64,000 bases of DNA from Candidatus Foliamicus sp. (GCA_965249285.1 OZ252226.1:1187095-1251094); one strand, 5' to 3'; shown: positions 7,513 through 34,154, counted from the first letter of the stretch. Numbers and translations: made by a program. The notes: a model not told the origin generated them from the sequence alone.

Positions 7513-7696
7513 TCCGCATCTCTCCAAGAGCCACCTCTGATTACTATTTTCCATCATCAGGCTTACGCAATCCTTACGTCGGTGCACACGCTGAAGCGTA
7601 ATGCCCTCGTTCCCAACGTGTGCCCTGCGCGTCAGCACAGCGCCGCTCAATCTCGCAGCCAGCCGATGTCGTCGGGGCGTCGAGTAGGATGACGGA

Positions 7697-8833
7697 ATGC
7701 GAGTGGGGCTCTTGTTCGTCTGCGTTGTAACGCTGAATGGCGTGCAGGCGCAGGATGGGTCAAGCCTGGCGGAACAATACCGGCTCCCGCCCAGCCAATG
7801 GCCACCGTTTGTCGTTGACGATGGCGTGCAAGCCGAGGAAATCGGCCCCCTGCCCCCGCTACCGCCGGTCTCCTGGCACACGCCCGCTGCTGAACAGCTT
7901 GGGAAACTGCTGTTCTTCGATCCGCGTCTTTCCGGCTCAGGTCAGCTGGCCTGCGTTAGTTGTCACGACGTCCAATTGGACTGGGGTGACGGCCGCAGAG
8001 TAGCCGCCGGGCATGACCGCTTTGCAGGAAGCCGCAACGCCATGACGCTGCTCAACGCCGCTTATTTCGACCACCTTTTCTGGGACGGACGTGCCCAGGG
8101 GCTGCTGGAGCTGGCGCTACAGCCGATCCAGAGTCCGGCGGAAATGAACGCGGAAATACCGGCCATCATCTTGAAGCTCAAGGAGACGGACGGCTATCCG
8201 GATGCTTTTGGAGAGACGTTCGGGTCTCCCGGGATCACTGCGCAGCGCATAGCCGAGGCGCTTGCGTCCTACGTGCGTTCGATTGTCTGGTCCTCAAGCC
8301 GCTTCGACCGTTTCGTGCGCGGAGACTACGACCGTCTTACGGACCAGGAGATAAAAGGCCTGCATTTGTTCCGTACCCGCGCGCGCTGCATGAACTGCCA
8401 TCACGGTCCGCGCTTCTCCGATGGGCAATTCCACCATACGGGCTTGAGTTACTATGGAAGACGGTTCGAGGACCTTGGGAGGTCTGACGTCACCGGAAAA
8501 GCCGAAGACCGGGGCAAATTTCGCACCTCAACACTACGCAATGTCCATAACACCGGGCCGTGGATGCATAACGGCCTGTTTACGGACTTCACGGGCATCC
8601 TGCGTATGTATAACCATGGCATCACCTTCTCCGCCCGCCCGCGGCCCGGCGCCCCCGAGCTGTCGCCGCTGGTCCGCCCATTGGGTTTGGACAGCAGCGA
8701 ACTGGCCGCTCTCGAAGCCTTTCTCGATACCTTAAGCCGGCGCCCCTCATTTGTGGAGCCTCCCGAGCTCCCCGGATTCGATGCATCCGCCCACCGCTTG
8801 CAGACCGAATCCCAATCCAGCGCCCTGCGCTGA
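7697..8833 (+). CDS. Di-heme cytochrome c peroxidase (CCP/MauG family)
   Basis: Two heme motifs CVSCH and CMNCH, LFFDPRLS, FWDGRA, FRTSTLRN; signal peptide. Confidence 0.9.
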   Translation: MRVGLLFVCVVTLNGVQAQDGSSLAEQYRLPPSQWPPFVVDDGVQAEEIGPLPPLPPVSWHTPAAEQLGKLLFFDPRLSGSGQLACVSCHDVQLDWGDGRRVAAGHDRFAGSRNAMTLLNAAYFDHLFWDGRAQGLLELALQPIQSPAEMNAEIPAIILKLKETDGYPDAFGETFGSPGITAQRIAEALASYVRSIVWSSSRFDRFVRGDYDRLTDQEIKGLHLFRTRARCMNCHHGPRFSDGQFHHTGLSYYGRRFEDLGRSDVTGKAEDRGKFRTSTLRNVHNTGPWMHNGLFTDFTGILRMYNHGITFSARPRPGAPELSPLVRPLGLDSSELAALEAFLDTLSRRPSFVEPPELPGFDASAHRLQTESQSSALR

Positions 8834-11514: not shown

Positions 11515-12204
11515 ATGAACGGTTCCGATAGCCTCCTGGCGCGCATCGCGGCATTCCTGGATACAGGGGGACCGGTGGTGTGGTTGTTGCTGGCTATTTC
11601 CATCGGCGCGCTCAGCGTGGTGGTGCTGAAACTCTGGCACTTCTTCCGCTTGCGTCCCGAGCATAACGAAGAGCTGCCGCAGGCACTTTCGGCCTGGCGG
11701 CAGGGACAACACGACCAGGCATGGCAGATGCTCAAGACCGAGCGTTTCAGTTCGGACATCGTTGCGCTGGCGATGCGCGAGTTGGCGAGGGGAGATACTG
11801 ACCAGGCAACGCTAAGGGAGGAACTGGAGCGCGTGGCGCTGGCTAAACTGAAGGACTTGCGCTCCCATCTTCCGGCACTGGAGGTCATCGGCACGCTCAC
11901 CCCACTCCTTGGGCTGTTGGGCACCGTCCTGGGCATGATCACCGCCTTCCGGGGCATGGAAGCGGCCGGCAGCCAGGTTGATCCATCGGTATTGTCCGGC
12001 GGCATCTGGCAGGCATTACTGACCACGGCCATGGGCCTGTCCATTGCGATTCCGGTGATGGCCGCCTACAACTGGATGGACCGCAAGGCCCAACGTGTCT
12101 CCGAACAGATCAACGACGCCGTAACCCAGGTATTCACGCGCTACAACAGCAAGGGCGCAAGAGAAAAAGCAGGCCCTTCCACCTCTGTTCCAGATGCGGC
12201 TTGA
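11515..12204 (+). CDS. exbB: MotA/TolQ/ExbB proton channel protein
   Basis: PLLGLLGTVLGMI and ALLTTAMGLSIAIP transmembrane motifs. Confidence 0.9.
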   Translation: MNGSDSLLARIAAFLDTGGPVVWLLLAISIGALSVVVLKLWHFFRLRPEHNEELPQALSAWRQGQHDQAWQMLKTERFSSDIVALAMRELARGDTDQATLREELERVALAKLKDLRSHLPALEVIGTLTPLLGLLGTVLGMITAFRGMEAAGSQVDPSVLSGGIWQALLTTAMGLSIAIPVMAAYNWMDRKAQRVSEQINDAVTQVFTRYNSKGAREKAGPSTSVPDAA

Positions 12205-12592
12205 CCAACTGATTCGGCGGCGGCGGCGCGCCATCAGCATGGTCCCGCTGATCGATGTCGTCTTCATCCTGTTGCTGTTCTTCATGCTGTCCACCAGCCT
12301 GATTCGAGCCCGGGAGCTCCCGGTGGACTTTCCAACGCCTGATGCCGAACCTTCGGCCCAGGCGCTGAAGATTATCCGCCTGGAATCCGAAGACGGATTG
12401 ATTTCGTACCAAGGACTTCGCTACGCCTCTGGGGATTCCGAAGCGCTGCGTGAACTGATTGCTGACGATCGCCAGGCCGCTTACGCCCTTGACACGGCCC
12501 CGGGCGTCAGCACCCAGGCGCTGGTTACGCTGCTGGACCGCCTGACACTGGCCGGAGCGCAAAACCTGTCGCTTGCGGAGGCAACGCAATGA
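12194..12592 (+). CDS. exbD: Biopolymer transport protein ExbD (copy 1)
   Basis: SMVPLIDVVFILLLFFML motif. Confidence 0.9.
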   Translation: MRLDQLIRRRRRAISMVPLIDVVFILLLFFMLSTSLIRARELPVDFPTPDAEPSAQALKIIRLESEDGLISYQGLRYASGDSEALRELIADDRQAAYALDTAPGVSTQALVTLLDRLTLAGAQNLSLAEATQ

Positions 12593-13017
12593 ACCTCTAC
12601 AGGCGGCGCGAACCACCATCCCAGGACAACAGCATGATCCCACTGATCAACGTGGTCTTCCTGATGCTGGCGTTCTTCATGATGGCAGGGCAGATCCAAC
12701 GCTCGGATGCGGTCCGCATGGACCCACCGGAATCCTTGAGCCGCGCGGCACAGGGTGAATATACGGCCACCTTGCTGATTACCGCCCGCCAGTCCCTTTT
12801 CCTGAACGATACGCCGTTGCGTCGCGAACAGCTTACCGGCGAGATTCGCCGCCTGTTGGAGACAGCCGCAGACCCGCAAGGCGTTCGTGTGCTGGTCAAG
12901 GCCGACGCCTCGCTGCCGGCTACCGAACTGCGGCTGGTTCTTGCCCGTCTGCGCGCCGCCGGCCTCCTGCGGGTATCGCTGGCAACCGAGTCAATAGCAG
13001 ACGCATCCGCTGGATAG
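12589..13017 (+). CDS. exbD: Biopolymer transport protein ExbD (copy 2)
   Basis: MIPLINVVFLMLAFFM, LVKADA. Confidence 0.88.
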   Translation: MNLYRRREPPSQDNSMIPLINVVFLMLAFFMMAGQIQRSDAVRMDPPESLSRAAQGEYTATLLITARQSLFLNDTPLRREQLTGEIRRLLETAADPQGVRVLVKADASLPATELRLVLARLRAAGLLRVSLATESIADASAG

Positions 13018-13022
13018 CGCAG

Positions 13023-13799
13023 GTGCGCACCGAAACAAAGCTGTTGCAGTGGAGTGCTGCCATCTGCACGGCGGTGGCAATCCATTTTCTATTGGTAGTG
13101 GGCATGGCCGGGCTCAATCGTTACGGCGCTGCCGGAGAAGGCCAGGGAGGAATCGAAATCGGCCTTGGTCTGCTGGGAGACATGGGTGAATCGACGGAGA
13201 TCTCGGACGCGAGCGATATAGTCGAGCAGCCACCCGAACAGGCCCCGGAGCCACCACCGCCAGAGCCCCCAGAACCGCAACCCGAACCGCCTCCGCCGGA
13301 GCCGGAACCGGCTCAACAGGTAACCGAGGTGGCGGTGCAGACCGAGACCATTGAACAAACGCCGGAGCCGCCCGAAAGCGAGCCCGCAGCCGAGCTACGC
13401 GAAACGGCGCCTTCGGAAGGAGGCAGTAGCGGAGAGGACGCCGTTACGCAAAGGCGCCGGTCCTCCGGATCGGGAGATTCGCCACGCGCGGGGGGTTCCC
13501 CCGGCCGTCAGGCAGCATACAGTGCGACCCTGGCCGCACAGCTGAACCGCTACAAGCACTACCCCATGGCTGCCCGCCGCGCCCGCCAGGAAGGCACTGC
13601 CACTCTCTCGCTGCTTATCCGGCGAGACGGCAGCGTTGCCGACTTCAGTATCAGCAAAAGTTCGGGCGTGGAAGCGCTGGATGCCGCGGTCTTGCGAATG
13701 CTGGAACGCGCGCAACCCTTGCCGGCTTTCCCGGCATCAATGACGGAAGACGAATTGCGTGTCGACTTCCCCGTTTCATTTTCGCTGAGTGCTCTATAA
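13023..13799 (+). CDS. tonB: Energy transducer TonB
   Basis: N-terminal TM anchor, Pro/Glu-rich linker, YPMAARRARQEG C-terminal domain. Confidence 0.9.
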   Translation: MRTETKLLQWSAAICTAVAIHFLLVVGMAGLNRYGAAGEGQGGIEIGLGLLGDMGESTEISDASDIVEQPPEQAPEPPPPEPPEPQPEPPPPEPEPAQQVTEVAVQTETIEQTPEPPESEPAAELRETAPSEGGSSGEDAVTQRRRSSGSGDSPRAGGSPGRQAAYSATLAAQLNRYKHYPMAARRARQEGTATLSLLIRRDGSVADFSISKSSGVEALDAAVLRMLERAQPLPAFPASMTEDELRVDFPVSFSLSAL

Positions 13800-16218: not shown

Positions 16219-16247
16219 AACGTCCTGGAACCTCCTCACATCCCCCC

Positions 16248-24194: not shown

Positions 24195-25544
24195 CTAGCC
24201 TGATTCGGCAGGTCCCGACTTGAAAATTTCCAGCATTCTTACAATGCTCCTCTCGAAAGTCGGATCTGTTCCCCGTGTATCGTCGCGACTCAGCACTTCT
24301 TCGCCAACCTCAACGGCACGATCCGTTTCGCCCAGGCGACCCAAGATACCCATGTACGTCGATGCAATTTTGGCCGTCGGCTCCATCGAATACGCTTTCG
24401 CACTGAGATCAAGGGCGCGTTGTTGAATTTCGGGCGTGTCGGCCATGGAGAGGTGCATCGCGAAACTGGTGTAGTCCGACCCGGTTAAGGTATCTCCCGC
24501 AGCTGCAATCTTCTCATCCGTTTCGGCGAGCATGACGTCCCATGCTTTCGTGGCGGTGAGGTAGGAATTTCGGCCCAGTTTCTCAAGATAGGACTTGTAG
24601 AGGTAGTCATTTTCAATTTCGCTAATCTGGATTTCGTAGGCGCGCGCCAATTCGCCATCCAGTTGATCGATATAGCGGGTATAGTCGGCATCGCCTTGAC
24701 GGGATGATAGAGCGACAGAAACTTTTATGCTCTCAAGTACGAGAAAGGCTATGCGAGACTCCTCGACTACTTCCGCGTACGCATCGTAGTGTTGCACCAC
24801 AAACTCGATCCACTCATTCTCTCGAGGAACGCTCGACAGGAAACTGCTGAAAAGATCGAAATCTTCCGCATTGATAAGTGATTCTGGCTCGACGCTGTCA
24901 ACATACTCATTAAATGCTGCAGTCAGTGCTGCGCGGCGCGCCATATATTCCGGCTGCATAAAGGCAGCTGTCACCGACTCTCCCGAGAACGACTCAGTTG
25001 TTAGCACGTATCGGCCCTCTACCAGATAGTCTTTGACGAGGTCGCGATCACGATCACCGGTATCGTATTTTTTCTCAAGCGCGGCAAACACCTGGCGTTC
25101 CTCGCCCATTGCCTCTCTTGCAACCGCAATGAACAACTCGGGTTTGAACGTACCGCCAACGGAATATTGCAATGTTCCGTCAGGTTTGATGTACAAATAG
25201 GTTGGATAGGCCGAGACACCGTATATGTTCGCCAATTCCGGGCCACGTATCGAAAAATCTTCCGCGTCCAGTTTGAAATTAACAAAGTGCTCGTTGTAAT
25301 AGGCACCAACATCTGCGCGTGGAAAGACGTTCAGATCCATGAGTTTGCACGGACCGCACCAACTCGTATAGACATCGACGAAGACCAGTTTGTCTTCGGC
25401 CCCTGCCTTTTCGAGAGCGGCATCAAAAGAACCCTCAAAGAACACGATTCCTGATTCGTCAACAACTTCCGCTCTCTCGCCCGCACTGCAAGCCGCAAGA
25501 AAAACTGCAACCAGCAAAGCGGCGATTACACGCAAACCGCTCAC
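24195..25544 (-). CDS. Thioredoxin-domain lipoprotein with helical C-terminus (paralog 3)
   Basis: LAAC lipobox, VDVYTSWCGPCK, YDTGDRD motif. Confidence 0.85.
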   Translation of the reverse strand: MSGLRVIAALLVAVFLAACSAGERAEVVDESGIVFFEGSFDAALEKAGAEDKLVFVDVYTSWCGPCKLMDLNVFPRADVGAYYNEHFVNFKLDAEDFSIRGPELANIYGVSAYPTYLYIKPDGTLQYSVGGTFKPELFIAVAREAMGEERQVFAALEKKYDTGDRDRDLVKDYLVEGRYVLTTESFSGESVTAAFMQPEYMARRAALTAAFNEYVDSVEPESLINAEDFDLFSSFLSSVPRENEWIEFVVQHYDAYAEVVEESRIAFLVLESIKVSVALSSRQGDADYTRYIDQLDGELARAYEIQISEIENDYLYKSYLEKLGRNSYLTATKAWDVMLAETDEKIAAAGDTLTGSDYTSFAMHLSMADTPEIQQRALDLSAKAYSMEPTAKIASTYMGILGRLGETDRAVEVGEEVLSRDDTRGTDPTFERSIVRMLEIFKSGPAESG

Positions 25545-26884
25545 AGGCCAAGCTCCTTCATCTCTTGGGTAAATCGATCGATCATGAATTGTCCGCGGTC
25601 GCCACCCATTTCCTCAAATTCCGCGAGCGCCTGCGCGTAAAACTCGCGAGCCTTTTCTTTCTCGCCCATTGTCGCCATAAAGTGACCGTAATCTGTTGCC
25701 ACGTACGAATTGTAGAAATTCTCGTACGCGTACTTGATGAACTTCTCGGTCTCGGGGTAGAACTCCTCGCCGCCCTCCGTCATACGCAGCCGGCGATAGT
25801 AGATAAGAAACTGAGACGCACCCAGGAGTTCTTTGCCTTCCATCACAAAGTCCCAACCGTGCTTCAAGTAACCGGCGAAGTCCCCCTGCGACATCGCGTG
25901 CTCCTGTTCACCCAAAGATGTCAGGACTTTGACCGGATCAACAATGTCCGCGTCGTTGAAGGCGTACGCTTTCGCCAGCTTCGTGTCGATGTCTTTGACG
26001 TATTCTTCGAACAACTCCCGATTGCCTGCGGCGCCAGCGTCGTTAATACCCGTGTAATTGGCGTTCATCAAGAATGTGCCGAACTCCTCCTCGTTCGGGA
26101 GGACAGCGACATATTCGTCATAGTGGTCGATCATATATTCGATATATTCGTGACCTCGACTAAGTTTCAATGTAGCGCCAAGGTTGTTTTTGAGAATCTG
26201 AAAATCATCCTCAGTCACTAACTGAGACGGTGGATGGCTGTTCACGTACTCGTGCAGCGCCGCCACAATTTTTCCACCCAGGGCCTGCTCTTCCGGTATG
26301 GCGGGCAATTCGAAATTGGCCATTACTTTGGCCCCCTCGAGAATGTAGCTGCGAACCAGGTCGGCATCGCGATCTCCGGCTTCGTACCGATCCGCAACCA
26401 TCTGAAACTCAATGGCCGGATCTTCACCGAGAACAGACTTCCCAACCGCAATGAACACAGCGGGATCCATCAATCCATTGCGGCGGCGCATAAGCTCTCC
26501 GTTCTTATCCATGTACAAATAGCTCGGAAACCCGAACGCACCATACTTTTCAGCGAACGCCGGACCGTCGGAGTCCGGATCCTCGGCATCGATCTTCCAG
26601 TTAATGTAATTCGCGTTGTAGTACTCGCCGACATCGTCTCGCGAGAAAACATCGGCGACCATTACCTTGCACGGGCCACACCACTCCGTGTAAACGTCGA
26701 CGAAAATCGGAAGATCTCGTTCCTGTGCCATCGCGAGCACGTCGGCAAAATTGCCCTCGACGAACACCATTCCACCTGATGCTTCCGTCATCTGCTTGTT
26801 TTCCTGCTCGGCTCCGCAACCATTCAGAGCTAGCGAAACGATGGCACAGGTCACTATTGCCAGGTAATTGTTCTTGATATCCAT
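25541..26884 (-). CDS. Thioredoxin-domain lipoprotein with helical C-terminus (paralog 2)
   Basis: LNGC lipobox, VDVYTEWCGPCK, YEAGDRD motif; start set at MDIKNN. Confidence 0.85.
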   Translation of the reverse strand: MDIKNNYLAIVTCAIVSLALNGCGAEQENKQMTEASGGMVFVEGNFADVLAMAQERDLPIFVDVYTEWCGPCKVMVADVFSRDDVGEYYNANYINWKIDAEDPDSDGPAFAEKYGAFGFPSYLYMDKNGELMRRRNGLMDPAVFIAVGKSVLGEDPAIEFQMVADRYEAGDRDADLVRSYILEGAKVMANFELPAIPEEQALGGKIVAALHEYVNSHPPSQLVTEDDFQILKNNLGATLKLSRGHEYIEYMIDHYDEYVAVLPNEEEFGTFLMNANYTGINDAGAAGNRELFEEYVKDIDTKLAKAYAFNDADIVDPVKVLTSLGEQEHAMSQGDFAGYLKHGWDFVMEGKELLGASQFLIYYRRLRMTEGGEEFYPETEKFIKYAYENFYNSYVATDYGHFMATMGEKEKAREFYAQALAEFEEMGGDRGQFMIDRFTQEMKELGL

Positions 26885-26985
26885 AACGAATTCATTCCTC
26901 TTGCCGTAGTTCGGCACAGACGCACATATGAAGTTTCCATGTATTAAAAAGCGCACGAATACTCGACGCACGCGCTAACATCGCA

Positions 26986-28356
26986 CTACTGAATGAGCTC
27001 CGTCTCAAGCTGAAACAGCGTAAGCTCGAACAAATCCCACGCACGCTCATCAACGCCGTCGTCCAATTCCCGGCCCGCCAATATCTTGTGACCCAACTGC
27101 ACCGCAGCTTCGCCGTCTCCCGCTTGTTGCAGGTGATACATATAAGTCATCGCCACCATCGGCGCAGGTTCCAGTTCAAGGGCTTTTCTTGCGTAGTGCA
27201 TTGACTTCCGACGCCATTCGGGATCGGGCGCCCGTTCAAACTGTTGCATCGCCGCAGCATAGTCCTGAGCAGTAACCGCCTGTCCCTTCTGCGCCAGCAT
27301 TTCCTCGGTCGACGCGTACAAAGCTTCCCAATCCTGCTGGGTTGGCTCATAGTGGAGTTGACCAAGTTTCTCGAAATATTCCTTGTAAAGGTACTCATTG
27401 TGCACGGTTTCCAACTGAACGCTGTAAGCCGCTGCAAGATCGCCATCAAGTCTGGCAATATCGTCTACATAAGACGAGTCTCCCGCCTGTGCCTTTTCGG
27501 CAACCGTGCTCTTGATATCTTCGAGAAGGTAGACGGCCACGCTGGTCTCCGGGACAAACTCGACAAAGCGAGCATAGTTGTCTGTGACGAATTTGACGGT
27601 TTTCGGATCCCGCTTAGGGCCCGATTCGTACGTCCGGATTAACGCGAAGTCCTCGCGATTAATGGTATCGCTCAGATTTCGGCGGGCCTTGTACGCCTCG
27701 TAATTTTTCCCCTGTTTGAAACTGAACAGCCAGCCTTCTTTCGAGCGCTGTGTTCCGGGCACATTATTGCTGGCGAGCACCAGATAAGCGCGAACGAAAT
27801 CCAGGTCGCGCTCGCCACTTTCGTAACGCGCTGACATTTCTGCAAAAAGCGTGTCGGTTTCGCCTCGCATCTTGCGGCCGAATCTGACGAACGCATCTGG
27901 CTCAAAATAGCCGAAGCCTTTGTCAACGTGCTCACCGTTTCCATTGAGGATCAGATAGGTCGGCAGCACTTCGACGCTGTTTGGCCCCGCCAACTCGGGA
28001 CCGTCAAAAACCTCGGCTTCCTGGTCACGCTTGATGACGACGAAATTATCGTTGAAGTACGAACCTACACCGGGATCCGTAAACACATTCAGGTCCATCA
28101 TTTTGCAGGGTGCACACCAGGTCGTGTAGACGTCCACCATGACCAGCTTGTCTTCCGCCGAGGCCTTTGCAAGCGCATTTTCGTAACTGCCGTCAAATAA
28201 CTCAATCCCTTGCGCGCCGGCGACGATTCCAGGTTCGGCATCATCCCGTTCCGCACATGCGCTCAGCAAAAAAACGGCTGGCAGCGCCAACAGCACTGCC
28301 AGCCGAATCGATCTGATTCTTGCTTTGTCAGCGGCCTGCCGATTCGTCAATACCAT
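26986..28356 (-). CDS. Thioredoxin-domain lipoprotein with helical C-terminus (paralog 1)
   Basis: LSAC lipobox, VDVYTTWCAPCK, YESGERD motif. Confidence 0.85.
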   Translation of the reverse strand: MVLTNRQAADKARIRSIRLAVLLALPAVFLLSACAERDDAEPGIVAGAQGIELFDGSYENALAKASAEDKLVMVDVYTTWCAPCKMMDLNVFTDPGVGSYFNDNFVVIKRDQEAEVFDGPELAGPNSVEVLPTYLILNGNGEHVDKGFGYFEPDAFVRFGRKMRGETDTLFAEMSARYESGERDLDFVRAYLVLASNNVPGTQRSKEGWLFSFKQGKNYEAYKARRNLSDTINREDFALIRTYESGPKRDPKTVKFVTDNYARFVEFVPETSVAVYLLEDIKSTVAEKAQAGDSSYVDDIARLDGDLAAAYSVQLETVHNEYLYKEYFEKLGQLHYEPTQQDWEALYASTEEMLAQKGQAVTAQDYAAAMQQFERAPDPEWRRKSMHYARKALELEPAPMVAMTYMYHLQQAGDGEAAVQLGHKILAGRELDDGVDERAWDLFELTLFQLETELIQ

Positions 28357-28401
28357 GTCGTATCACCCTGGTGTCGTGTACTCGCGTGACACGACACTGG
28401 A

Positions 28402-31152
28402 CTAAAAGTCAAAGTCTTTGCGCAGTGTTGCGAAAATAACTCGACCACGCGTGTCGATGCGACGAAGATCGAATGGCCCGCCGAATCCAGCAGCAAACGG
28501 GAACTCACGATCGAACAGATTGCGGGCACCGACGGTAAGGTCGATTTGCGCTCGCTCAAACGTGTAGTTCGCAGAAAAGTCCCAGGTTGTATAGCTGCCA
28601 ATGGTCGGCGCTTCAGCGTAAAAAGCAGAGAACGCAACAGGTGCTTCGGTATTCCGGTAGCTGTCGGTGTGGTTTCCGAATAGTCGGACACTGTAGTTAT
28701 CACGCAGCCATTCGAAAGTGAATGTCCCCACCAGTTCGTTCGGGCTGCTACTCGTGCCAAGACGCTCCCGAGGCGTTTCGCCGGGGGCGATAATGTCTTC
28801 GAATGTTATCGTTCGAACACCATCAAGCCGAACGGAAAAATCACCGGCGCCATTGTTCCAGGAATAGCCGATCGCGAAATCGACACTTTCAACATTTCGT
28901 TGGGCCACATTGATCGGAAAGAGCGTCAGACTGACCAGATCGTTTGTCACCGGGTCGCGTGCAGCGAACCCTGGAAACAGCTGTGGGTTGGCAAGAATAA
29001 AGTCGAATCCAAATGCTGAAAGCGGGTTGGCCGTAATTCTGTCTTCGTACTCAACGTCAGAATAGTTCAAAGATATCTGCAGGCCCTGAATGGCACTGGG
29101 ACTCCAGTCGAATCCAACATTGATTGTTGTCGCAAATTCCGGCTCCAGCGACGGATTGCCGCTACGGTCGGAGAATGGGAATGCCACAGTCCCCTGAACA
29201 GGATCAAATAGCGGGAATGTACCGGGCGTGAGCGCCTGAACATATGCTCCCACCACCTGAGTCAGGTTTGGCGCCTTGAACGACTCGCCCCAGCTCGCCC
29301 GCAAGCTGAACGTCTCGGTCGCGTCCCACCTGACCGCCAGCCTCGGGCTGAAATTGCTCAAAGTCCGACCGTTAATCGGCCCACTCAGAATGGCTTCAAG
29401 TGCGGGGCTAACAGGCCTTGGCTGACCATCGAGTGGTGGCGGTGCACTGGAATCAACCTCGTATTCTTCCCATCGGCCCTGCACGACAGCATTGACAGTC
29501 TCAGCTAACGGGATTGAATTTTCGAAGAATAGCGCTGTGACGGTTTGCTTGGGTTTTGTGTCCGCAAGCGTACCATTGAGAAGACCAATCTCGTCCGCGC
29601 TTTGGTCCAGTTCTTCGCTCCGGTATTCAGCGCCAAGCACCACCTCCCATGCGCCCGCCGGAAGCTCAAATACTTCGCCGACAACGTGGCCATTAATATT
29701 GGCCAAACGCGATTTACGCGTTCGGTCGAAGACAACACCATAGGAGTCCAGCACGGCATCAATATTCTGCGCCGTACCGTTACCAAACGGGTTAATCCGG
29801 TCCGCAAGGATCGTATTGCCAAAGATGTCGTAGCCAATTGAAAGTGCTTGATTTTCGGAACTGCCGTAACCAGCGGCGACATCCAATACCCAGCCGCTAT
29901 CGCCGAGCTCTGTCAAGAAACCCGCATTGAGCGTCAGGTCCTTTGAGTCGTTTTCCGTGCCGCCGTAAGGAATCAATCCAGCATTCGTCTCGGAAAGTAG
30001 ATACGACCCAACGAACACCGGAAATCCGAGCGTATTGAGCGGATTTCCGGTCATGTTGACCGGATCCCAGGGTTGGACCAGACCGATAAAAAATGGCGCG
30101 TTTAGCTGCGACGTCGTATCGCCCTCCGATACGTAGATCTCGGTGAAAAAGCTCGACGACTCGCCGAAGCGCTGCTCAAAAAAAACGGTCAATGCCAAGC
30201 TCTCCACTTCGGCTGTCTGCTGCAATGGCACGTTGTCCGCGGGCACAATATTGAGTGGGCTCAAGTCAAAGAACGTAAAGGACGTGCCGTCGAAATCGGC
30301 CGGCAGTGAGCCAAATCCAAATACATTTCCGGGCTGCGTCAAGAACGTGTTGCGCGCGTCCGGCCCCCCCCGACTTGTGTAATCCAGGGTGGTAAAGCCC
30401 GTTTCTGCGGTGATGACCGGATCGGTTTTGCTGTGGACGACCGTGGCGGTCAGGTTACCCGTGTCCCAACCGAAACCAGCAAGCTGGCTGATCTCAAACT
30501 TGTCGGACTCCGTCGAGCTGTTTTGGTAGGACAGCGTCGTTGTGGCGCCCTCGTAGTCTTTTTTCAGAATAAAGTTGATCACGCCGCCGAGCGCATCTGA
30601 GCCGTAGGTTGCCGATGCACCATCGAGTAGCACCTCGACGCGCTCGATCGCGGCGGCGGGAATTTTCGACAAATTGACCTGCGTGCCGTTGAACCCGGCC
30701 GATCCAACCGAACGGCGCCCATTAATCAGGACCAGCGTGGCATTGCTTCCCAGCCCGCGCAGGTCGGCTGCTGCTTCGCCCTGCCCGAAACTGCCGACGG
30801 GAATTCCGTCACCGCCGACCGGTTGCGAGATACCCCGCGCCCGATTGATGGTCGAGAAGTTCTGCGGAATGCTCGCGATGATGTCCTCGGCCGTCGTAAA
30901 TCCTCGTGCATCGATGGAGTCTCGATCGATGACGATGACCGGCGAGGTCCGGTGAGCACTGGTCAGCCGACTGCCGGTAACAACTATCGGCTCAAGAGTA
31001 TCTTCGTCCGTGTCGGCCAAGGCGCTTGCATCGTCTTGTGCAATGGAAGAATACGGAGCCATACCTACCGCACACAATATTGCGGCGAAAAATAATCTGT
31101 TTTTTTGTGCTGTACGTCTTTTCGCACAGCGAATGAAGTATCGAACGTTCAT
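28402..31152 (-). CDS. TonB-dependent outer membrane receptor
   Basis: EPIVVTGSRL TonB box, IERVEVLLDGASATYGSDALGGVINFIL plug, C-terminal Phe. Confidence 0.92.
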   Translation of the reverse strand: MNVRYFIRCAKRRTAQKNRLFFAAILCAVGMAPYSSIAQDDASALADTDEDTLEPIVVTGSRLTSAHRTSPVIVIDRDSIDARGFTTAEDIIASIPQNFSTINRARGISQPVGGDGIPVGSFGQGEAAADLRGLGSNATLVLINGRRSVGSAGFNGTQVNLSKIPAAAIERVEVLLDGASATYGSDALGGVINFILKKDYEGATTTLSYQNSSTESDKFEISQLAGFGWDTGNLTATVVHSKTDPVITAETGFTTLDYTSRGGPDARNTFLTQPGNVFGFGSLPADFDGTSFTFFDLSPLNIVPADNVPLQQTAEVESLALTVFFEQRFGESSSFFTEIYVSEGDTTSQLNAPFFIGLVQPWDPVNMTGNPLNTLGFPVFVGSYLLSETNAGLIPYGGTENDSKDLTLNAGFLTELGDSGWVLDVAAGYGSSENQALSIGYDIFGNTILADRINPFGNGTAQNIDAVLDSYGVVFDRTRKSRLANINGHVVGEVFELPAGAWEVVLGAEYRSEELDQSADEIGLLNGTLADTKPKQTVTALFFENSIPLAETVNAVVQGRWEEYEVDSSAPPPLDGQPRPVSPALEAILSGPINGRTLSNFSPRLAVRWDATETFSLRASWGESFKAPNLTQVVGAYVQALTPGTFPLFDPVQGTVAFPFSDRSGNPSLEPEFATTINVGFDWSPSAIQGLQISLNYSDVEYEDRITANPLSAFGFDFILANPQLFPGFAARDPVTNDLVSLTLFPINVAQRNVESVDFAIGYSWNNGAGDFSVRLDGVRTITFEDIIAPGETPRERLGTSSSPNELVGTFTFEWLRDNYSVRLFGNHTDSYRNTEAPVAFSAFYAEAPTIGSYTTWDFSANYTFERAQIDLTVGARNLFDREFPFAAGFGGPFDLRRIDTRGRVIFATLRKDFDF

Positions 31153-31267
31153 CGGCCTCCCCAGTGAGTTTCGCAAGGTTATTGGCCCATTGACTGACCC
31201 TATCACCTGACAATCCTACGGAATGACCGTTACAGGAACCTTGAATTGCCGGACAACAAAAAAATAT

Positions 31268-32692
31268 TCAGGGATCGAGCGCATCACCAGGAAATTCGAC
31301 CTCGAATACTGCGCCTCCTTTGGGCTCGTTGTAAGCACTAACGGATCCTTTGTGAATACGCATAATTGCGGTGACGATGGCCAACCCCAGACCATGGCCG
31401 CGTTTATTGGGTGGATTCTTAAAGAATGGCTCGAATATCTGGTCCTTGTCGCCTTGCGCAACACCTGGTCCTTCATCCCTGACTGTTGCTCGGTTGCCGT
31501 CGACGCGTACGTGAATCGTCTTTCCTTTTGGTGTAAACGACAGCGCATTGTCTATGAGGTTTGCAATCACGCTCTTGATAGACTCGCGTTCGCCGAATAC
31601 AAGGGTGTTGTTGTCGGTCGACTCAAACGTCAATTCTTTGCCTGCCTGAAGTACCGCCCGGCCGCGTTCTACACAGATGTCCTCCACTACATTTGCCAGC
31701 CGGAGTTCAGTGAACTGATCTTCCAGCGTTCCGACTCTCGCGAGTGTCAATAGTTGCGTGATCATGGCCCCCATCTGCTGGACGTCCAGTGCAAGTTTTT
31801 CCTTAAGTTCCGAATCATCGAGTTCCTCGATTTTGGATCGATGAACGGCCAACGGCGTCCTAAGTTCGTGTGCTGCGGCAGCCACAAACATTGCCTGTTG
31901 CTCGCTCGCTGACTCGAGCCGACCGATGGCGCGATTGATCGCCTGGACCATTGGCGCAATCTCGATTGGCAGGTTGTTCTCGGGGAGTAAGATATGATGA
32001 CCATCGACACCAATCTGCGACGCCGCTTTGGAGACTTCTCGAACTCGGTTCATAAGCGAACCAAACAGCAGGCCGAATGCTCCGAGCATCAATACTGTCA
32101 ACAATACCAGGGGTACTGCGCGCACGGTCGCCATATCGCCTTCCAGCAAAGTCAGCTTGACTATGTCCCAGATGTGATTCCAGAACGGCACATCGGTGCG
32201 AATTCCTTGTACTTCCAGGTAGTACGCCGTGTCGCCGCAGCCGCCCATCTGGACAATCCCCGAACCAGCGTCGTCGCCAGCCCAAATTCGTACCGGCAAT
32301 ATATTGCAGCGCAACGAATCGTCGGCGCCAGATGAAAGCGCAACGTTTTGCCCAACTATTTGGTCCATGAATCGTGGATCGCCGGGCGCACTGGAATAAA
32401 CTGAATCAAAAGCACTGACGTAATACCAGGCGTCAGGGTTTCGCCGCATCATCACCTTCAACTGCGATGTCGCATCCCGTGTCATCTCCTCTGAACTATG
32501 GGGATTCGATAGCACGAGAACCGCACCAATGACACGGTTCGTTGCTTCTCTTTGAGGGTCGTGAACCAACGTATGCGAAATTATCCAAGTCCCTGTCGTG
32601 GCTACGAACGCGATGAAAAGCGTCGACACAGCTGCTAGTAGCTGAATCCGCCACCGAAGCGAGTACCATCCTTTCTTAGTTGATTGGCTCAC
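31268..32692 (-). CDS. Sensor histidine kinase
   Basis: AAHELRTPL, NLIDNA, DEGPGV, GHGLGLAI. Confidence 0.95.
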   Translation of the reverse strand: MSQSTKKGWYSLRWRIQLLAAVSTLFIAFVATTGTWIISHTLVHDPQREATNRVIGAVLVLSNPHSSEEMTRDATSQLKVMMRRNPDAWYYVSAFDSVYSSAPGDPRFMDQIVGQNVALSSGADDSLRCNILPVRIWAGDDAGSGIVQMGGCGDTAYYLEVQGIRTDVPFWNHIWDIVKLTLLEGDMATVRAVPLVLLTVLMLGAFGLLFGSLMNRVREVSKAASQIGVDGHHILLPENNLPIEIAPMVQAINRAIGRLESASEQQAMFVAAAAHELRTPLAVHRSKIEELDDSELKEKLALDVQQMGAMITQLLTLARVGTLEDQFTELRLANVVEDICVERGRAVLQAGKELTFESTDNNTLVFGERESIKSVIANLIDNALSFTPKGKTIHVRVDGNRATVRDEGPGVAQGDKDQIFEPFFKNPPNKRGHGLGLAIVTAIMRIHKGSVSAYNEPKGGAVFEVEFPGDALDP

Positions 32693-33369
32693 CCGTCGGT
32701 ATCCTCCGTAAGCATGTAGCCCAGGCCTCGTGCGGTTTTAATATATAGGCCCGCATCAGTCTCTTTGAGCCGTTTCCGAATCCGCGACACGTGCGATTCC
32801 AGCGCGTTCGACAATGGTGGCTCGTCAAAACCGTACACACGATCGATAATTTCAGACCGCCGCACAATTTGTTCCGGTTTGGTTACCAGCAGTTCAAGGA
32901 TGACAAATTCGCGCCGCCGAAGGTCAAATATTTTTCCGTTCACACGAAACAGTCGGCCCGCTCGATCATACTCAAGGCCACCAATCTCGGCGCGAGCTTG
33001 ATTGCTCGAGCGCGGAATTCTCAACATCGCCCGAATCCGCGCCAATAACTCTTTCGGCTCGAACGGCTTGACAATGTAGTCTCCCGCCCCTGAATCCAAA
33101 CCGGCGACCCGATCGTCGACATCCCCCAATGCCGAAAGCACGAGAAATCGCGGCAATTTGGTCATTGATTGCGCCTTTACGATTAGGCTTAGCCCGTCGC
33201 CATCGGGCAAACGGCGGTCCAGGAGTACGATTGAATAGTCGATTTCGCGGAGCGATGCCCAGGCAATTGATACGGATTCCGCCAGATCGACGTCGAAATC
33301 GTGCTCCCGCAAGAACTTGGCCGTGTTTTTTGCGAGCTCAATCTCATCTTCAACAAGAAGTATTCTCAT
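32689..33369 (-). CDS. OmpR-family response regulator
   Basis: LLVEDE, LLDRRLPDGDG, DYIVKPF, TARGLGY. Confidence 0.95.
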   Translation of the reverse strand: MRILLVEDEIELAKNTAKFLREHDFDVDLAESVSIAWASLREIDYSIVLLDRRLPDGDGLSLIVKAQSMTKLPRFLVLSALGDVDDRVAGLDSGAGDYIVKPFEPKELLARIRAMLRIPRSSNQARAEIGGLEYDRAGRLFRVNGKIFDLRRREFVILELLVTKPEQIVRRSEIIDRVYGFDEPPLSNALESHVSRIRKRLKETDAGLYIKTARGLGYMLTEDTDG

Positions 33370-33421: not shown

Positions 33422-34063
33422 GCCTGCGCCGTAGGAATTCGCGACAATAGGGATTGTATGTTGAAGGGGGAATGAGATGGCCACGACGTTTCGCTCGTAT
33501 CAGCCGGCGAACGCCCCGGCGTCCGCTTACTGATGTTGCCGGACGAGTTGAAGCGGCGGGAAGATCGGCTGAAAGCGATCGTTGAGGCCAAGGCGCAGAG
33601 CAACTTTACGGATCCGCAAAGCCGGATCATGAAGACCAGTTCGGAGAGCTTTCAGCAGTGTTACAACGCGCAGTTGGCGGTGGAAGGAGGGAACCAGTTG
33701 ATCGTGGCGGCGGAGGTGACCTCGAACGCCAGCGACCAGGGCAGATGCTGCCACGTCTTACCGAGGTTCAGGCGGATTACGGGGCCTGTCCGGAGACGGT
33801 GTTAGCGGACGCGGGGTATTGCAACAAGGCGGACCTGGCGTCTTTGGAGGAGCGTGGCGTGGACGCTTATGTGGCTTTGGGCCGAGAGGGCAACAAAGCG
33901 GTGGCGGTCAACGCCAAGGCGCATCCGGCGCGGACGCGGATGGCGGCGAAGCTGGCCACGCCGGACGGCCGGGCACGCTACGCGAAGCGCAAGTGGCTGT
34001 CGGAAGCGCCCAACGGCTGGATCAAGCAGGCGCTGGGTTTTCGCCGTTTCAGCGTGCGCGGCT
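33422..34063 (+). mobile_element. IS1182-family remnant with internal deletions, truncated at the tRNA 3' end
   Basis: Left end gcctgcgccgtag and coding pieces (QSNFTDP, QQCYNAQ, LADAGY, FRRFSVRG) collinear with the copy at 54911-56486. Confidence 0.85.
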
Positions 34064-34154
34064 TGGCGGAGAGGGTGGGATTCGAACCCACGATACGGGA
34101 ATACCGTATACCTGAACTCCAATCAGGCGCCTTCGTCCACTCGGCCACCTCTCC
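34064..34154 (-). tRNA. tRNA-Ser (GGA)
   Basis: GGAGAGG acceptor, anticodon arm CCTGA-TTGGAGT-TCAGG, long variable arm, GGTTCGAATCC, G73, encoded CCA. Confidence 0.92.

What the first reader, a model, noticed from the sequence alone, without database searches (positions are those of the whole stretch)
24195..33369. TCS, TonB receptor and three tandem thioredoxin lipoproteins in one cassette
Seen: six co-oriented genes. Each of the three 450-aa lipoproteins has a WC(G/A)PC thioredoxin domain, a shared YExG(D/E)RD motif and a long helical tail, and they are highly diverged from each other. Inference: the architecture recalls Bacteroidota thioredoxin-fold proteins; here it may form a regulated import system that reduces disulfide-bonded cargo, with the helical domains setting substrate specificity.
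Basis: partly seen in the sequence, partly recalled or inferred. Interest (0 to 1): 0.7.

Follow-up and report, generated by a model that had tools for sequence, protein, structure and literature searches.

The report
TonB receptor operon with periplasmic thioredoxin lipoproteins
An uncultured gammaproteobacterium carries an operon-like cassette (two-component regulator, outer-membrane TonB-dependent importer, three diverged thioredoxin-plus-helical-solenoid lipoproteins) of an uncharacterised but widespread locus type that probably reduces disulfide-bonded cargo, likely peptides, after import.

Summary
Six co-oriented minus-strand genes at 24195-33369 encode an OmpR-type response regulator, a histidine kinase, a 934-aa TonB-dependent receptor (TBDR) and three paralogous lipoproteins (24-37% identical). 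Each lipoprotein has a canonical WC[GA]PCK thioredoxin (Trx) domain and a roughly 290-aa TPR-like solenoid with no Pfam family and no solved relative.

The cassette is one instance of a recurrent, uncharacterised locus type.
- In 11 of 13 runs of these genes in related high-GC metagenome contigs and in Porticoccaceae bacterium LTM1, the run follows a TBDR, and runs hold 1-4 copies.
- The window's TBDR and first lipoprotein have co-inherited orthologues (55% and 50% identity).
- In Bacteroidota the same Trx-solenoid family sits in ECF sigma/anti-sigma/SusC/SusD operons. Neighbours there include TlpA-like reductases, sometimes a full DsbD, DsbD-alpha fusions and M16, S9 or S8 peptidases.

Best reading: import coupled to DsbD-fed periplasmic disulfide reduction, with cargo probably a disulfide-rich peptide or protein. 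Gene linkage and active-site integrity are shown. Reductase activity, cargo, topology and control by the two-component system are inferred.

What is particular here is a two-component system in place of ECF/FecR/STN signalling, three lipidated paralogues, and a lower-GC island-like setting beside tRNA-Ser.

The parts
32689..33369 (-). OmpR/PhoB-type response regulator (226 aa)
   Evidence: Pfam Response_reg + Trans_reg_C. NCBIfam best matches are RppA/PmrA/TctD-like, all below their cut-offs. The gene overlaps the HK gene by 4 bp.
31268..32692 (-). Sensor histidine kinase (474 aa) with two transmembrane segments and a roughly 150-aa periplasmic domain holding Cys129 and Cys152
   Evidence: Pfam HisKA + HATPase_c, weak HAMP. 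The cytoplasmic half is 42% identical to the second HK of the window (4077-5471), while the sensor domains are unrelated.
28402..31206 (-). TonB-dependent receptor (934 aa; probable start at Met19 = 31152). It has no STN domain and no cysteine in the mature protein.
   Evidence: Pfam Plug + barrel. It reaches no NCBIfam cut-off, and PDB matches cover the plug only. It is 55% identical to the STN-bearing TBDR of L085/L086 and 48% to that of Porticoccaceae LTM1 (L171); both of those precede Trx-solenoid genes.
26986..28356 (-). Trx-solenoid lipoprotein A (456 aa; lipobox LSAC, WCAPCK)
   Evidence: It is 45-50% identical to P0003-P0010, most of which lie directly after a TBDR.
25541..26971 (-). 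Trx-solenoid lipoprotein B (probably 447 aa from the ATG at 26884; LNGC, WCGPCK). It is the most diverged paralogue.
   Evidence: It equals database protein P0002. Its nearest outside relative is P0179, which lies in a four-copy run after a TBDR.
24195..25544 (-). Trx-solenoid lipoprotein C (449 aa; LAAC, WCGPCK)
   Evidence: The AlphaFold2 model has pLDDT 85 and pTM 0.74: Trx fold at residues 30-145, about 15 helices at 150-445. Its nearest outside relative is P0178, WIO73978.1 of Porticoccaceae bacterium LTM1.
33533..34154 (.). Probable island boundary: a frameshifted transposase remnant (33533-34060, +) abutting the 3' end of tRNA-Ser(GGA) (34064-34154, -)
   Evidence: ARAGORN and Rfam find the tRNA; the ORFs are. 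GC is 53-56% across 24-34 kb against 59-64% in the flanks. No att-like direct repeat was found.
5557..7881 (-). Possibly associated: a secreted FG-GAP beta-propeller fused to a DsbD-alpha-like domain, with C-terminal motif YQTCKDDLCLLP
   Evidence: Pfam FG-GAP_3 + DsbD_N. The motif aligns with the E. coli DsbD-alpha catalytic Cys region. It is homologous over its full length to proteins encoded next to Trx-solenoid genes in Maribacter (L003) and Marinifilum (L004). The link to the cassette is inferred only.
11515..13799 (+). Possibly associated: ExbB-ExbD-ExbD-TonB energising system, downstream of a second TBDR (8860-11421)
   Evidence: Pfam MotA_ExbB, ExbD x2, TonB_C. Any TBDR needs such a system. 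That this one serves the cassette is inferred.

Best explanation
The cassette is a TonB-dependent import module coupled to periplasmic disulfide reduction.

The proposed sequence of events is:
1. The kinase and regulator switch on the operon.
2. The Cys-free 934-aa receptor, energised by TonB-ExbBD, brings a disulfide-containing substrate across the outer membrane. The substrate is most probably a disulfide-rich peptide or small protein.
3. Three thioredoxin-type reductases, tethered to the inner face of the outer membrane by a lipid anchor and a disordered acidic linker of about 10-15 residues, capture the substrate with their diverged TPR-like solenoids.
4. Their WC[GA]PCK sites reduce its disulfides.
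5. The oxidised enzymes are recycled by a DsbD/CcdA-type electron supply, possibly through the DsbD-alpha-like fusion protein in the same window.
6. The reduced, unfolded cargo becomes a substrate for peptidases and inner-membrane uptake.

Shown:
- The gene order and the domain content.
- The intact catalytic residues and the predicted two-domain fold.
- Conserved genetic linkage to TBDR or SusC in two phyla.
- Co-inheritance of the TBDR and lipoprotein A.
- Recurrent DsbD, TlpA-like and peptidase neighbours.

Inferred:
- Reductase activity and its direction.
- Periplasmic topology.
- Cargo identity.
- Any docking to the receptor.
- Control by the two-component system.
For: 1. Active site. All three paralogues and all close relatives keep W-C-[GA]-P-C-K. 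They also keep the Asp six residues before the first Cys (VDVYT) and the cis-Pro position (P114 in C). These are invariant columns. From general knowledge, this is the E. coli TrxA-type reducing site.

2. Fold. The Trx domain matches 2KUC (TM 0.86, 42% identity), DsbH and DsbD-gamma. The C-terminal domain is a confident all-helical solenoid (pLDDT 91) with only generic TPR resemblance.

3. Linkage outside Bacteroidota. A TBDR lies directly upstream, or upstream via a TlpA-like gene, in the window, L001, L083, L084 (twice), L085-87, L088/89, L090, L171, L172 and L173. L002 stands alone.

4. Co-inheritance. The window TBDR is 55% identical to the L085 TBDR, and lipoprotein A is 50% identical to P0009. 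The TBDR is 48% identical to that of Porticoccaceae LTM1.

5. Bacteroidota. Of 46 long family members, 17 sit in SusC/SusD operons, against 0 of 12 Trx-only relatives. The same holds in metagenome loci.

6. Functional guild.
- A full DsbD plus an M16 peptidase in L148/L153.
- M16 in L001, S8 in L090, and S9 in L076/L154/L161/L163/L164, each directly downstream of the Trx-solenoid gene.
- TlpA-like reductases in many loci.
- DsbD_N proteins in L003, L004, L172 and the window.

7. Cysteine content. The mature cognate TBDRs in the window, L084b, L171a, L172b and L173a contain no cysteine (L085 has one outside its signal region, Cys74), so the receptor itself is not the redox substrate.

8. Domain divergence. 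The solenoid diverges faster than the Trx domain. The three paralogues are ancient lineages, each with its own outside relatives.

9. Transcription. A few near-identical contigs from putative RNA runs lie on the C, B, TBDR and HK genes, and one spans the HK-TBDR junction. This is weak evidence.
Against: - There is no biochemical or genetic evidence for any family member. Literature searches found only a 2026 preprint hypothesising oxidative-stress or iron roles for Trx lipoproteins near TBDTs in Muribaculaceae.
- The window's operon contains no peptidase, no DsbD and no inner-membrane transporter.
- No DsbD or CcdA membrane domain was identified in the window.
- About 60% of the long Bacteroidota family members are not next to a SusC within 9 kb, and L002 stands alone.
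- ECF/FecR/STN signalling in relatives is classically tied to iron uptake.
- Topology is inferred from the lipobox and the absence of Asp at +2, not tested.
- Peptidase neighbours occur in only about 9 of roughly 170 fetched loci, many of which are short contigs.
Confidence: 0.55

Rival explanations
1. Envelope redox defence or iron acquisition. The Trx-solenoid lipoproteins act as periplasmic chaperedoxin- or TlpA-like repair enzymes. They would protect envelope proteins from oxidants, or assist reductive release of iron from an imported chelate or iron protein. The TBDR would be an iron, heme or siderophore receptor, and the kinase would sense redox or metal stress.
For: - The Trx+TPR architecture resembles the chaperedoxin CnoX (general knowledge).
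- The kinase has two periplasmic cysteines.
- Relatives use ECF/FecR/STN cell-surface signalling, which is classic for ferric-siderophore systems.
- The best NCBIfam match of the TBDR's C-terminal half is the heme/hemoglobin receptor subfamily, though far below its cut-off.
- A 2026 preprint proposes ROS or iron roles for Trx lipoproteins next to TBDTs and cites iron-deprivation induction of DUF4369 proteins.
Against: - No Fur-box-like site lies upstream of the regulator or receptor genes (best 10-11 of 19 matches, which is background).
- No siderophore, heme or NCBIfam iron-receptor cut-off is reached.
- Peptidases and a full DsbD in the same operons in relatives, and SusD partners in Bacteroidota, point to a macromolecular nutrient.
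- CnoX is cytoplasmic and was not recovered by fold search.
- A general defence role does not explain the tight one-to-one pairing and co-inheritance with a specific TBDR.
Confidence: 0.2
2. SusD-like role. In Proteobacteria, which lack SusD, the lipidated Trx-solenoid proteins are surface-exposed lids or substrate-binding partners of the TBDR. They would capture cargo outside the cell, and the CxxC would act in mixed-disulfide capture rather than in catalytic turnover.
For: - The gene sits exactly where susD sits, 3-45 bp after the TBDR stop.
- Several gammaproteobacterial and related non-Bacteroidota members carry a lipobox (others, for example L171_T1, L172_T1 and L173_T3, keep ordinary signal peptides), whereas Bacteroidota members have ordinary signal peptides.
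- The linker after the lipid-modified Cys is acidic.
- The solenoid is TPR-like, as is the SusD core (general knowledge).
Against: - There is no Pfam SusD match.
- No SusD structure appears among the top 50 Foldseek hits for either model, despite many SusD entries in the PDB.
- In Bacteroidota the family coexists with a true SusD and is not lipidated.
- No surface-lipoprotein export machinery or signal was identified.
- A surface thioredoxin has no known electron donor.
- DsbD, DsbD-alpha and TlpA-like neighbours argue for the periplasm.
Confidence: 0.08
3. Metal (copper) handling. The kinase and regulator form a CusS/CopS-like metal sensor, the TBDR imports a metal or metallophore, and the Trx lipoproteins act like ScsC, TlpA or Sco-type proteins in metal delivery or detoxification.
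For: The best NCBIfam match of the kinase is the heavy-metal sensor kinase subfamily (130 bits). The regulator matches CopR/CztR-type families. TlpA and Scs proteins link thioredoxin folds to copper (reviews listed).
Against: - All those NCBIfam scores are far below their cut-offs (130 against 293 bits).
- The sensor domain is unrelated even to the paralogous kinase in the window.
- The Cys-free receptor lacks any obvious metal site.
- Relatives use ECF/FecR and carry peptidases.
Confidence: 0.05

Closest known systems
Bacteroidota ECF-sigma / anti-sigma / SusC / SusD loci carrying thioredoxin-fold genes (annotated only; function unknown)
   Same: - The same Trx-solenoid protein family: full-length matches at 25-35% identity, with WCGPC conserved.
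- Downstream position in a TonB-dependent transporter operon.
- Tandem paralogues (L004, L055, L138).
- TlpA-like, DsbD and peptidase neighbours.
   Different: The window has no SusD, no ECF/anti-sigma pair, and no STN or CarboxypepD_reg extension on the receptor. Its proteins are lipoproteins, whereas the Bacteroidota ones have ordinary cleaved signals. The host is a gammaproteobacterium.
ECF/FecR/STN-TBDR + Trx-solenoid operons of marine Gammaproteobacteria (Porticoccaceae bacterium LTM1, CP127080.1) and of related unclassified metagenome contigs
   Same: These are the closest relatives. TBDR identity is 48-55% and Trx-solenoid identity 40-50%. Gene order is the same, runs hold 1-4 Trx-solenoid genes, and the receptors are Cys-free.
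   Different: Regulation is by cell-surface signalling (ECF sigma, FecR, STN domain) instead of a two-component system. Many of these loci add TlpA-like reductases, a stand-alone DsbD_N protein or peptidases that the window's operon lacks.
DsbD-dependent periplasmic reductases (DsbD-gamma, DsbH, TlpA/ResA/CcmG)
   Same: A Trx fold of the Thioredoxin_7/DsbH type, an extracytoplasmic location, and a reducing-type CxxC. The best structural matches include DsbH and DsbD-gamma.
   Different: The window proteins carry an extra solenoid of about 290 aa, a lipid anchor and TBDR linkage. They do not match the Redoxin/AhpC-TSA families that define TlpA and ResA. No cytochrome c maturation context is present.
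CnoX (YbbN) chaperedoxin: thioredoxin + TPR
   Same: The two-domain logic: an N-terminal Trx fold followed by a C-terminal TPR-like substrate-binding domain.
   Different: CnoX is cytoplasmic, whereas these proteins are exported. No sequence or fold-search match to CnoX was recovered. The resemblance is one of design only.
Protease-associated import systems (FusA/FusC, YddB/PqqL; PMC6793856)
   Same: A large TBDR imports a protein that is then processed in the periplasm. M16 peptidases sit directly after the Trx-solenoid gene in L001, L148 and L153.
   Different: The window has no M16 gene, no FusB-like TonB and no ABC transporter in the operon. The L001 M16 matches PqqL and FusC only at family level (E about 1e-17). 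The PAIS paper does not mention thioredoxins.

Membership tests
Thioredoxin superfamily, Thioredoxin_7 / DsbH / DsbD-gamma-like | Pfam match above the gathering score | tested here: met
   PF13899, PF03190, PF13098 and PF00085 are all above their cut-offs in all three proteins.
Thioredoxin superfamily, Thioredoxin_7 / DsbH / DsbD-gamma-like | Trx fold with a CxxC at the N-terminus of helix 1 and a conserved cis-Pro loop | tested here: met
   The AlphaFold2 model superposes on 2KUC with TM 0.86 and rmsd 2.0. W-C-x-P-C-K, the Asp at -6 and Pro114 are invariant columns.
Thioredoxin superfamily, Thioredoxin_7 / DsbH / DsbD-gamma-like | Disulfide reductase activity | not testable with these tools
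   This needs an insulin or DTNB assay and a redox potential measurement.
Bacterial lipoprotein (Lgt/LspA substrate) | Signal peptide ending in the lipobox [LVI][ASTVI][GAS]C | tested here: met
   A has LSAC and C has LAAC, both canonical. B has LNGC, with an atypical Asn at -2. Residue +2 is Ala, Gly or Ser rather than Asp, so outer-membrane sorting is inferred from the E. coli rule.
TonB-dependent receptor | Plug domain, 22-strand barrel domain, N-terminal signal and TonB box | tested here: met
   PF07715 (64 bits) and PF00593 (132 bits). A signal peptide and the stretch EPIVVTGSR are seen in the sequence.
TonB-dependent transducer (cell-surface signalling) | N-terminal STN domain with adjacent ECF sigma and FecR genes | tested here: not met
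   There is no STN match and no ECF or FecR genes in the window. The orthologous TBDRs in L085, L088 and L171 have all three.
SusD/RagB | SusD_RagB or SusD-like_3 domain or fold, in a lipoprotein encoded after the TBDR gene | tested here: not met
   The position and the lipobox are met. There is no Pfam SusD match and no SusD structure in the top 50 Foldseek hits of either model.
CnoX/YbbN chaperedoxin | Cytoplasmic Trx+TPR protein homologous to YbbN | tested here: not met
   The proteins are exported (lipobox). There was no YbbN hit in the PDB sequence or fold searches.
TlpA/ResA/CcmG (Redoxin/AhpC-TSA type) | Match to PF08534 or PF00578, or to the NCBIfam ResA model | tested here: not met
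   There is no Redoxin or AhpC-TSA match. ResA scores 16-19 bits against a cut-off of 170. Separate TlpA-like genes do accompany the family in relatives.
Protease-associated import system (Fus/PqqL type) | TBDR together with a periplasmic M16 protease (plus a TonB homologue and an ABC transporter) | tested here: not met
   There is no M16 gene in the cassette or its flanks. M16 is present in the related loci L001, L148 and L153.
OmpR/EnvZ-class two-component system | RR with receiver + winged-helix domains; HK with HisKA + HATPase_c and two transmembrane segments | tested here: met
   No equivalog cut-off is reached, so the signal is unknown.
tRNA-linked genomic island | Compositional shift, tRNA boundary, mobility genes and flanking direct repeats | tested here: inconclusive
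   GC is 53-56% against 59-64%. A tRNA-Ser lies next to a transposase remnant on one side and an AbiE toxin-antitoxin pair on the other. No att-like repeat and no integrase were found.

The most novel reading that the evidence does not exclude
The Trx-solenoid proteins are dedicated, receptor-docked 'reductive ratchets'. Each paralogue would bind the periplasmic face of its Cys-free TBDR and reduce the disulfides of a folded, disulfide-rich protein or peptide as it emerges. Reduction and unfolding would then drive or gate translocation and hand the chain to peptidases.

Examples of such cargo could be host defence peptides, toxins or extracellular matrix domains.

This would define a new class of reduction-coupled protein import shared by Bacteroidota, including human-gut species, and by marine Gammaproteobacteria. 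The split DsbD-alpha-like fusion proteins would serve as its electron relay.
Probability: 0.15. Interest if true: 0.85.

Novelty: new variant of a known kind. Interest (0 to 1): 0.55.

Why it matters
TonB-dependent transporters are known to import siderophores, vitamins, glycans and a few proteins. How imported disulfide-bonded material is handled in the oxidising periplasm has not been addressed.

This cassette belongs to a recurrent locus type found in marine Gammaproteobacteria and in many Bacteroidota, gut species included. That locus type pairs a transporter with dedicated thioredoxin-fold proteins and, in relatives, with DsbD and peptidases.

If the model is right, it defines a reduction step as an accessory function of outer-membrane import. 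It also names a function for a helical domain that has no Pfam family and no solved structure. It would point to disulfide-rich peptides or proteins as a nutrient or signal class for these bacteria.

A named genome, Porticoccaceae bacterium LTM1, and genetically tractable Bacteroidota carry the same module, so the hypothesis can be tested directly.

Tried and rejected
- **Island ends.** I searched for a direct repeat of the tRNA-Ser 3' end to mark the island ends. Only 13-mers matching IS copies turned up.
- **Promoters and terminators.** The consensus scan gave fewer hits than shuffled sequence and was uninformative.
- **Fur box.** Scans upstream of the regulator, receptor and Trx genes gave background scores only, so Fur control is not supported.
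- **SusC detection.** jackhmmer seeded with the window's TBDR did not detect Bacteroidota SusC genes. I first read that as absence of linkage. Gene sizes and Pfam then showed SusC/SusD, so I re-did the search with a SusC seed.
- **Fold and sequence searches.** These were run on the whole protein and on the solenoid alone, looking for SusD, CnoX or any specific relative. Only generic TPR arrays came back, at E >= 0.01 and TM <= 0.36.
- **Metagenome scan.** A scan with lipoprotein A for more close relatives returned only distant Bacteroidota homologues, mostly from human gut.
- **Literature.** Searches for any characterised TBDR-thioredoxin system found none. The only related item is a hypothesis in a 2026 preprint.
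- **DsbD seed.** A jackhmmer seed from a full DsbD was too promiscuous, because its Trx domain pulls in everything. I used it only to identify the three full-length DsbD genes.
- **Recent duplication.** The idea that the three paralogues are recent tandem duplicates is rejected. Each groups with different outside relatives.

Full report
**1. Observation.**

ORF listing shows six co-oriented minus-strand genes exactly at 24195-33369.

- The response regulator (33369..32689) overlaps the histidine kinase (32692..31268) by 4 bp.
- After a 61-bp gap comes a 934-aa TonB-dependent receptor (TBDR; 31206..28402). The gap is 115 bp if the receptor starts at Met19.
- After 45 bp come three genes of about 450 codons: A 28356..26986, B 26971/26884..25541 and C 25544..24195. 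B and C overlap by 4 bp.

Pfam confirms the domains. The regulator has Response_reg + Trans_reg_C. The kinase has HisKA + HATPase_c. The receptor has Plug + barrel and no STN domain. Each of the three proteins matches Thioredoxin_7, Thioredox_DsbH, Thioredoxin_2 and Thioredoxin on roughly residues 40-160 only, which leaves about 290 C-terminal residues with no Pfam family.

The three are full-length paralogues at 37, 30 and 28% identity, with E-values from 1e-91 to 1e-34. WCAPC or WCGPC and Y[ED]xG[DE]RD are present in all three. Lipoboxes LSAC, LNGC and LAAC precede a short acidic linker.

**2. What the proteins are.**

AlphaFold2 models lipoprotein C as three parts (mean pLDDT 85, pTM 0.74):

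- a disordered tether, residues 18-29;
- a thioredoxin fold, residues 30-145;
- a bundle or solenoid of about 15 helices, residues 150-445.

Modelled alone, the helical domain reaches pLDDT 91.

Foldseek places the thioredoxin (Trx) domain next to 2KUC, a Bacteroides thetaiotaomicron 'putative disulphide-isomerase' (42% identity, TM 0.86). Chlamydial DsbH and DsbD-gamma follow, in agreement with the PDB sequence search.

The helical domain has only generic TPR-superhelix resemblance (best E 0.01, TM <= 0.36) and no sequence relative in the PDB. No SusD and no CnoX/YbbN structure was recovered.

The invariant columns are W-C-x-P-C-K, an Asp six residues before the first Cys, and the cis-Pro position. 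From general knowledge of E. coli TrxA (..VDFWAEWCGPCKM..), these are the hallmarks of a reducing thioredoxin rather than a DsbA-like oxidase.

The Trx domains are 36-48% identical between paralogues and the solenoids only 18-33%. This fits a conserved catalytic head and diverged binding bodies.

**3. Host and setting.**

DapA encoded next to the cassette is about 81% identical to proteins from 'Chromatiales bacterium' and 'Gammaproteobacteria bacterium' MAGs. The neighbouring dapA, gcvR-like, bcp and M48-TPR peptidase genes resemble the enterobacterial arrangement. The host is therefore an uncultured gammaproteobacterium with contigs of 2.3-3.9 Mb.

The cassette lies in a GC trough: 53-56% against 59-64% in the flanks. 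On one side a transposase remnant abuts tRNA-Ser. On the other lies an AbiEii toxin gene with a small upstream partner. No att repeat or integrase was found, so an island origin is plausible but unproven.

The cassette sequence occurs in sequencing runs labelled with at least seven different organisms, including a Hi-C genome project. This suggests, weakly, a host-associated lifestyle.

**4. Relatives outside Bacteroidota.**

A profile search of 5.8 billion proteins found only about ten full-length clusters at 45-50% identity to lipoprotein A. A word-index-free scan of 1.84 billion representatives with the solenoid alone found 145 clusters at E <= 1e-3. Most are 400-480 aa with the domain at positions 140-430. 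The family is therefore small and its architecture is fixed.

The neighbourhoods are strikingly uniform.

| Locus | Gene order |
|---|---|
| L085-87, L088/89 | ECF sigma, FecR, STN-TBDR, Trx-solenoid, with a 3-bp gap |
| L084 | Two such units |
| L083, L090 | The unit plus a TlpA-like reductase; L090 also has a second TBDR and an S8 peptidase |
| L001 | ECF, FecR, TBDR, TlpA-like, Trx-solenoid, M16 peptidase |
| L171 (Porticoccaceae bacterium LTM1, CP127080.1) | ECF, FecR, STN-TBDR followed by two Trx-solenoid genes |
| L172 (same genome) | A second large cluster with two more Trx-solenoid genes, several TlpA-like genes and a stand-alone DsbD_N protein |
| L173 | TBDR, TlpA-like, then four Trx-solenoid genes |
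| L002 | Trx-solenoid gene stands alone |

TBDR and Trx-solenoid are inherited together. The window's receptor is 55% identical to that of L085 and 48% to that of L171. Lipoprotein A is 50% identical to the L085 partner.

A rough NJ tree puts A, B and C in different sub-clades, each with its own outside relatives (A with P0003-P0010, C with Porticoccaceae P0178, B with P0179). They are old lineages, not recent duplicates.

**5. Relatives in Bacteroidota.**

The best 80 genome loci found with the family pattern are almost all Bacteroidota.

I called ORFs locally and labelled them with jackhmmer seeds verified by Pfam. Many long members (320 aa or more, Trx plus helical) end operons of the form ECF sigma, FecR-type anti-sigma, SusC (STN + CarboxypepD_reg + Plug), SusD. 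These operons optionally add DUF4369-AhpC/TSA (TlpA-like) genes or DUF4843 and PKD-like lipoproteins.

- Of 46 long members with at least 5 kb of upstream sequence, 17 are so linked.
- None of 12 short Trx-only relatives is linked.
- Metagenome loci, many from human gut, repeat the pattern.
- Tandem copies occur in L004 (x3), L055 (x3) and several pairs.

Bacteroidota members carry ordinary cleavable signals (..AQ|G) rather than lipoboxes. They are thus predicted to be soluble periplasmic proteins, which argues that the family works in the periplasm.

**6. The functional guild.**

- In L148 and L153 the operon reads ECF, FecR, SusC, SusD, Trx-solenoid, TlpA-like, full-length DsbD (DsbD_N + DsbD_TM + Thioredoxin_7), M16 peptidase.
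- In L076, L154, L161, L163 and L164 the gene after the Trx-solenoid is a 900-930-aa S9 peptidase.
- Together with M16 in L001 and S8 in L090, peptidases of three clans recur directly downstream.
- In Maribacter (L003) and Marinifilum (L004) the Trx-solenoid genes sit beside FG-GAP propeller proteins that end in a DsbD_N domain.

The window itself encodes a full-length homologue of those proteins at 5557-7881. Its C-terminal YQTCKDDLCLLP aligns with the catalytic Cys pair region of E. coli DsbD-alpha. In DsbD the gamma domain, a Thioredoxin_7 fold, exchanges electrons with the alpha domain. A free gamma-like lipoprotein plus a free alpha-like fusion in one genome therefore suggests a periplasmic electron relay. 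This is an inference.

**7. Mechanism proposed.**

Shown:

- the gene order and domains;
- an intact reducing-type active site;
- the two-domain fold;
- conserved linkage to TBDR or SusC in two phyla;
- co-inheritance of the TBDR and lipoprotein A;
- recurrent DsbD, TlpA-like and peptidase neighbours;
- no cysteine in the mature receptors of the window, L084b, L171a, L172b and L173a (L085 has one, Cys74, outside its signal region), so the receptor is not the redox target.

Inferred: the kinase and regulator induce the operon. The receptor, powered by a TonB-ExbBD system such as the one at 11515-13799, imports a disulfide-bonded substrate. The three outer-membrane-tethered, periplasm-facing reductases bind it through their diverged solenoids and reduce it, and are recycled by a DsbD-type supply. 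The unfolded product goes to peptidases and inner-membrane transport.

The peptidase neighbours make a disulfide-rich peptide or protein the most likely cargo.

A few near-identical contigs from putative RNA runs lie on genes C, B, the TBDR and the HK, and one spans the HK-TBDR junction. That is weak evidence of expression and read-through.

**8. Rivals.**

- *Envelope redox defence or iron acquisition.* Points in favour are the CnoX-like design, the periplasmic Cys pair of the kinase, the iron-typical ECF/FecR/STN logic in relatives, and a 2026 preprint's hypothesis. Points against are the absence of a Fur box, the failure to reach any iron-receptor family cut-off, and the SusD and peptidase partners.
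- *SusD-like surface role.* It fits the gene position and the gain of a lipobox. It conflicts with the lack of any SusD fold match, with coexistence with true SusD in Bacteroidota, and with the DsbD-type neighbours.
- *Copper or other metal role.* It rests only on sub-threshold family matches.

**9. Comparison and novelty.**

The cassette works like a TBDR nutrient locus with accessory periplasmic enzymes, as do polysaccharide utilisation loci and protease-associated import systems (PMC6793856). It is not a member of either. It has no SusD, no CAZymes and no M16 gene, and that paper does not mention thioredoxins.

Its Trx domains belong to the Thioredoxin_7/DsbH/DsbD-gamma group. The solenoid is an undescribed domain.

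Seven literature searches found no characterised member. This instance is therefore an ordinary member of a recurrent but uncharacterised locus type.

Its own peculiarities are:

- the replacement of ECF/FecR/STN signalling by a two-component system;
- three lipidated paralogues;
- the lower-GC setting.

I rate it a new variant of a known kind, of moderate-to-good interest. The cassette is not unique. Its value is that the comparative evidence assembled here makes a specific hypothesis, reduction-coupled TonB-dependent import, directly testable in available strains.

**10. Limits.**

- Taxon labels of most related contigs are unknown.
- ORF calling in loci was mechanical.
- The linkage counts include related genomes.
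- No complex prediction was possible.
- Activity, topology, cargo and regulation remain untested.

Noticed in passing
window 5557-7881 (-): A secreted FG-GAP propeller protein ends in a DsbD-alpha-like domain (YQTCKDDLCLLP). It lies between a second two-component system (3406-5471) and a second TBDR (8860-11421). Full-length homologues sit beside Trx-solenoid genes in Maribacter (L003) and Marinifilum (L004).
   Followed up: partly
window 19515-20234 (+); L001 14701-15420: A PCO_ADO-family thiol dioxygenase has a twin-arginine-like N-terminus. It is 74% identical to a gene lying one gene beyond the TBDR/TlpA/Trx-solenoid/M16 cluster of L001, which is much higher than the identity of the Trx (49%) or TBDR (26%) genes there. 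This could be a conserved chromosomal neighbour or a functional partner.
   Followed up: partly
window 15559-16239, 20301-21170, 21285-22707: Other thiol- or sulfur-related genes lie between the two TBDR clusters: a thiopurine/thiol S-methyltransferase, a secreted FGE-sulfatase-domain protein, and an apparently frameshifted gene with a twin-arginine (Tat-type) signal peptide; Pfam found no family for either fragment. This may be coincidence.
   Followed up: no
window 28402-31206; L171, L172, L173, L084, L085: The TBDRs that directly precede Trx-solenoid genes contain no cysteine in the mature protein in most cases (L085 has a single one, Cys74). Neighbouring TBDRs without such partners (window 8860-11421, L173 15335-18586) have 4-7. 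L001's TBDR, which has four, is an exception.
   Followed up: partly
window 31268-32692 (residues 129 and 152 of the kinase): The periplasmic sensor domain of the cassette's histidine kinase holds two cysteines. The paralogous kinase at 4077-5471 has none in its sensor domain. This could be a redox-sensitive disulfide.
   Followed up: no
window 22850-23922 (-): An AbiEii-family nucleotidyltransferase toxin gene, with a small upstream partner overlapping it by 4 bp, lies directly downstream of the last Trx gene. It looks like a type IV toxin-antitoxin pair at the edge of the low-GC segment.
   Followed up: no
window 33533-34154: A frameshifted IS-type transposase remnant abuts the 3' end of tRNA-Ser(GGA). 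Short matches to it recur near 55.2 kb, where related transposase ORFs lie.
   Followed up: partly
window 46769-48730 and 62446-63939 (-): There are two group II intron copies. Rfam finds Intron_gpII twice and the D1-D4-4 family once, each copy with a 446-aa ORF that has the same N-terminus. The 44-64 kb part of the window is rich in transposase-like ORFs.
   Followed up: no
L172 (Porticoccaceae bacterium LTM1, CP127080.1 2752115-2771377): A redox 'super-locus' holds two TBDRs, an ECF/FecR pair, four TlpA-like genes, two Trx-solenoid genes and a stand-alone DsbD_N protein within 19 kb. It is a promising experimental entry point in a named genome.
   Followed up: partly
window 34167-34445 (-): A small lipoprotein-like ORF (92 aa, ..MVHGC..) lies directly downstream of dapA, where bamC sits in enterobacteria. 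It may be a truncated or divergent BamC, and its end lies close to the tRNA/IS junction.
   Followed up: no
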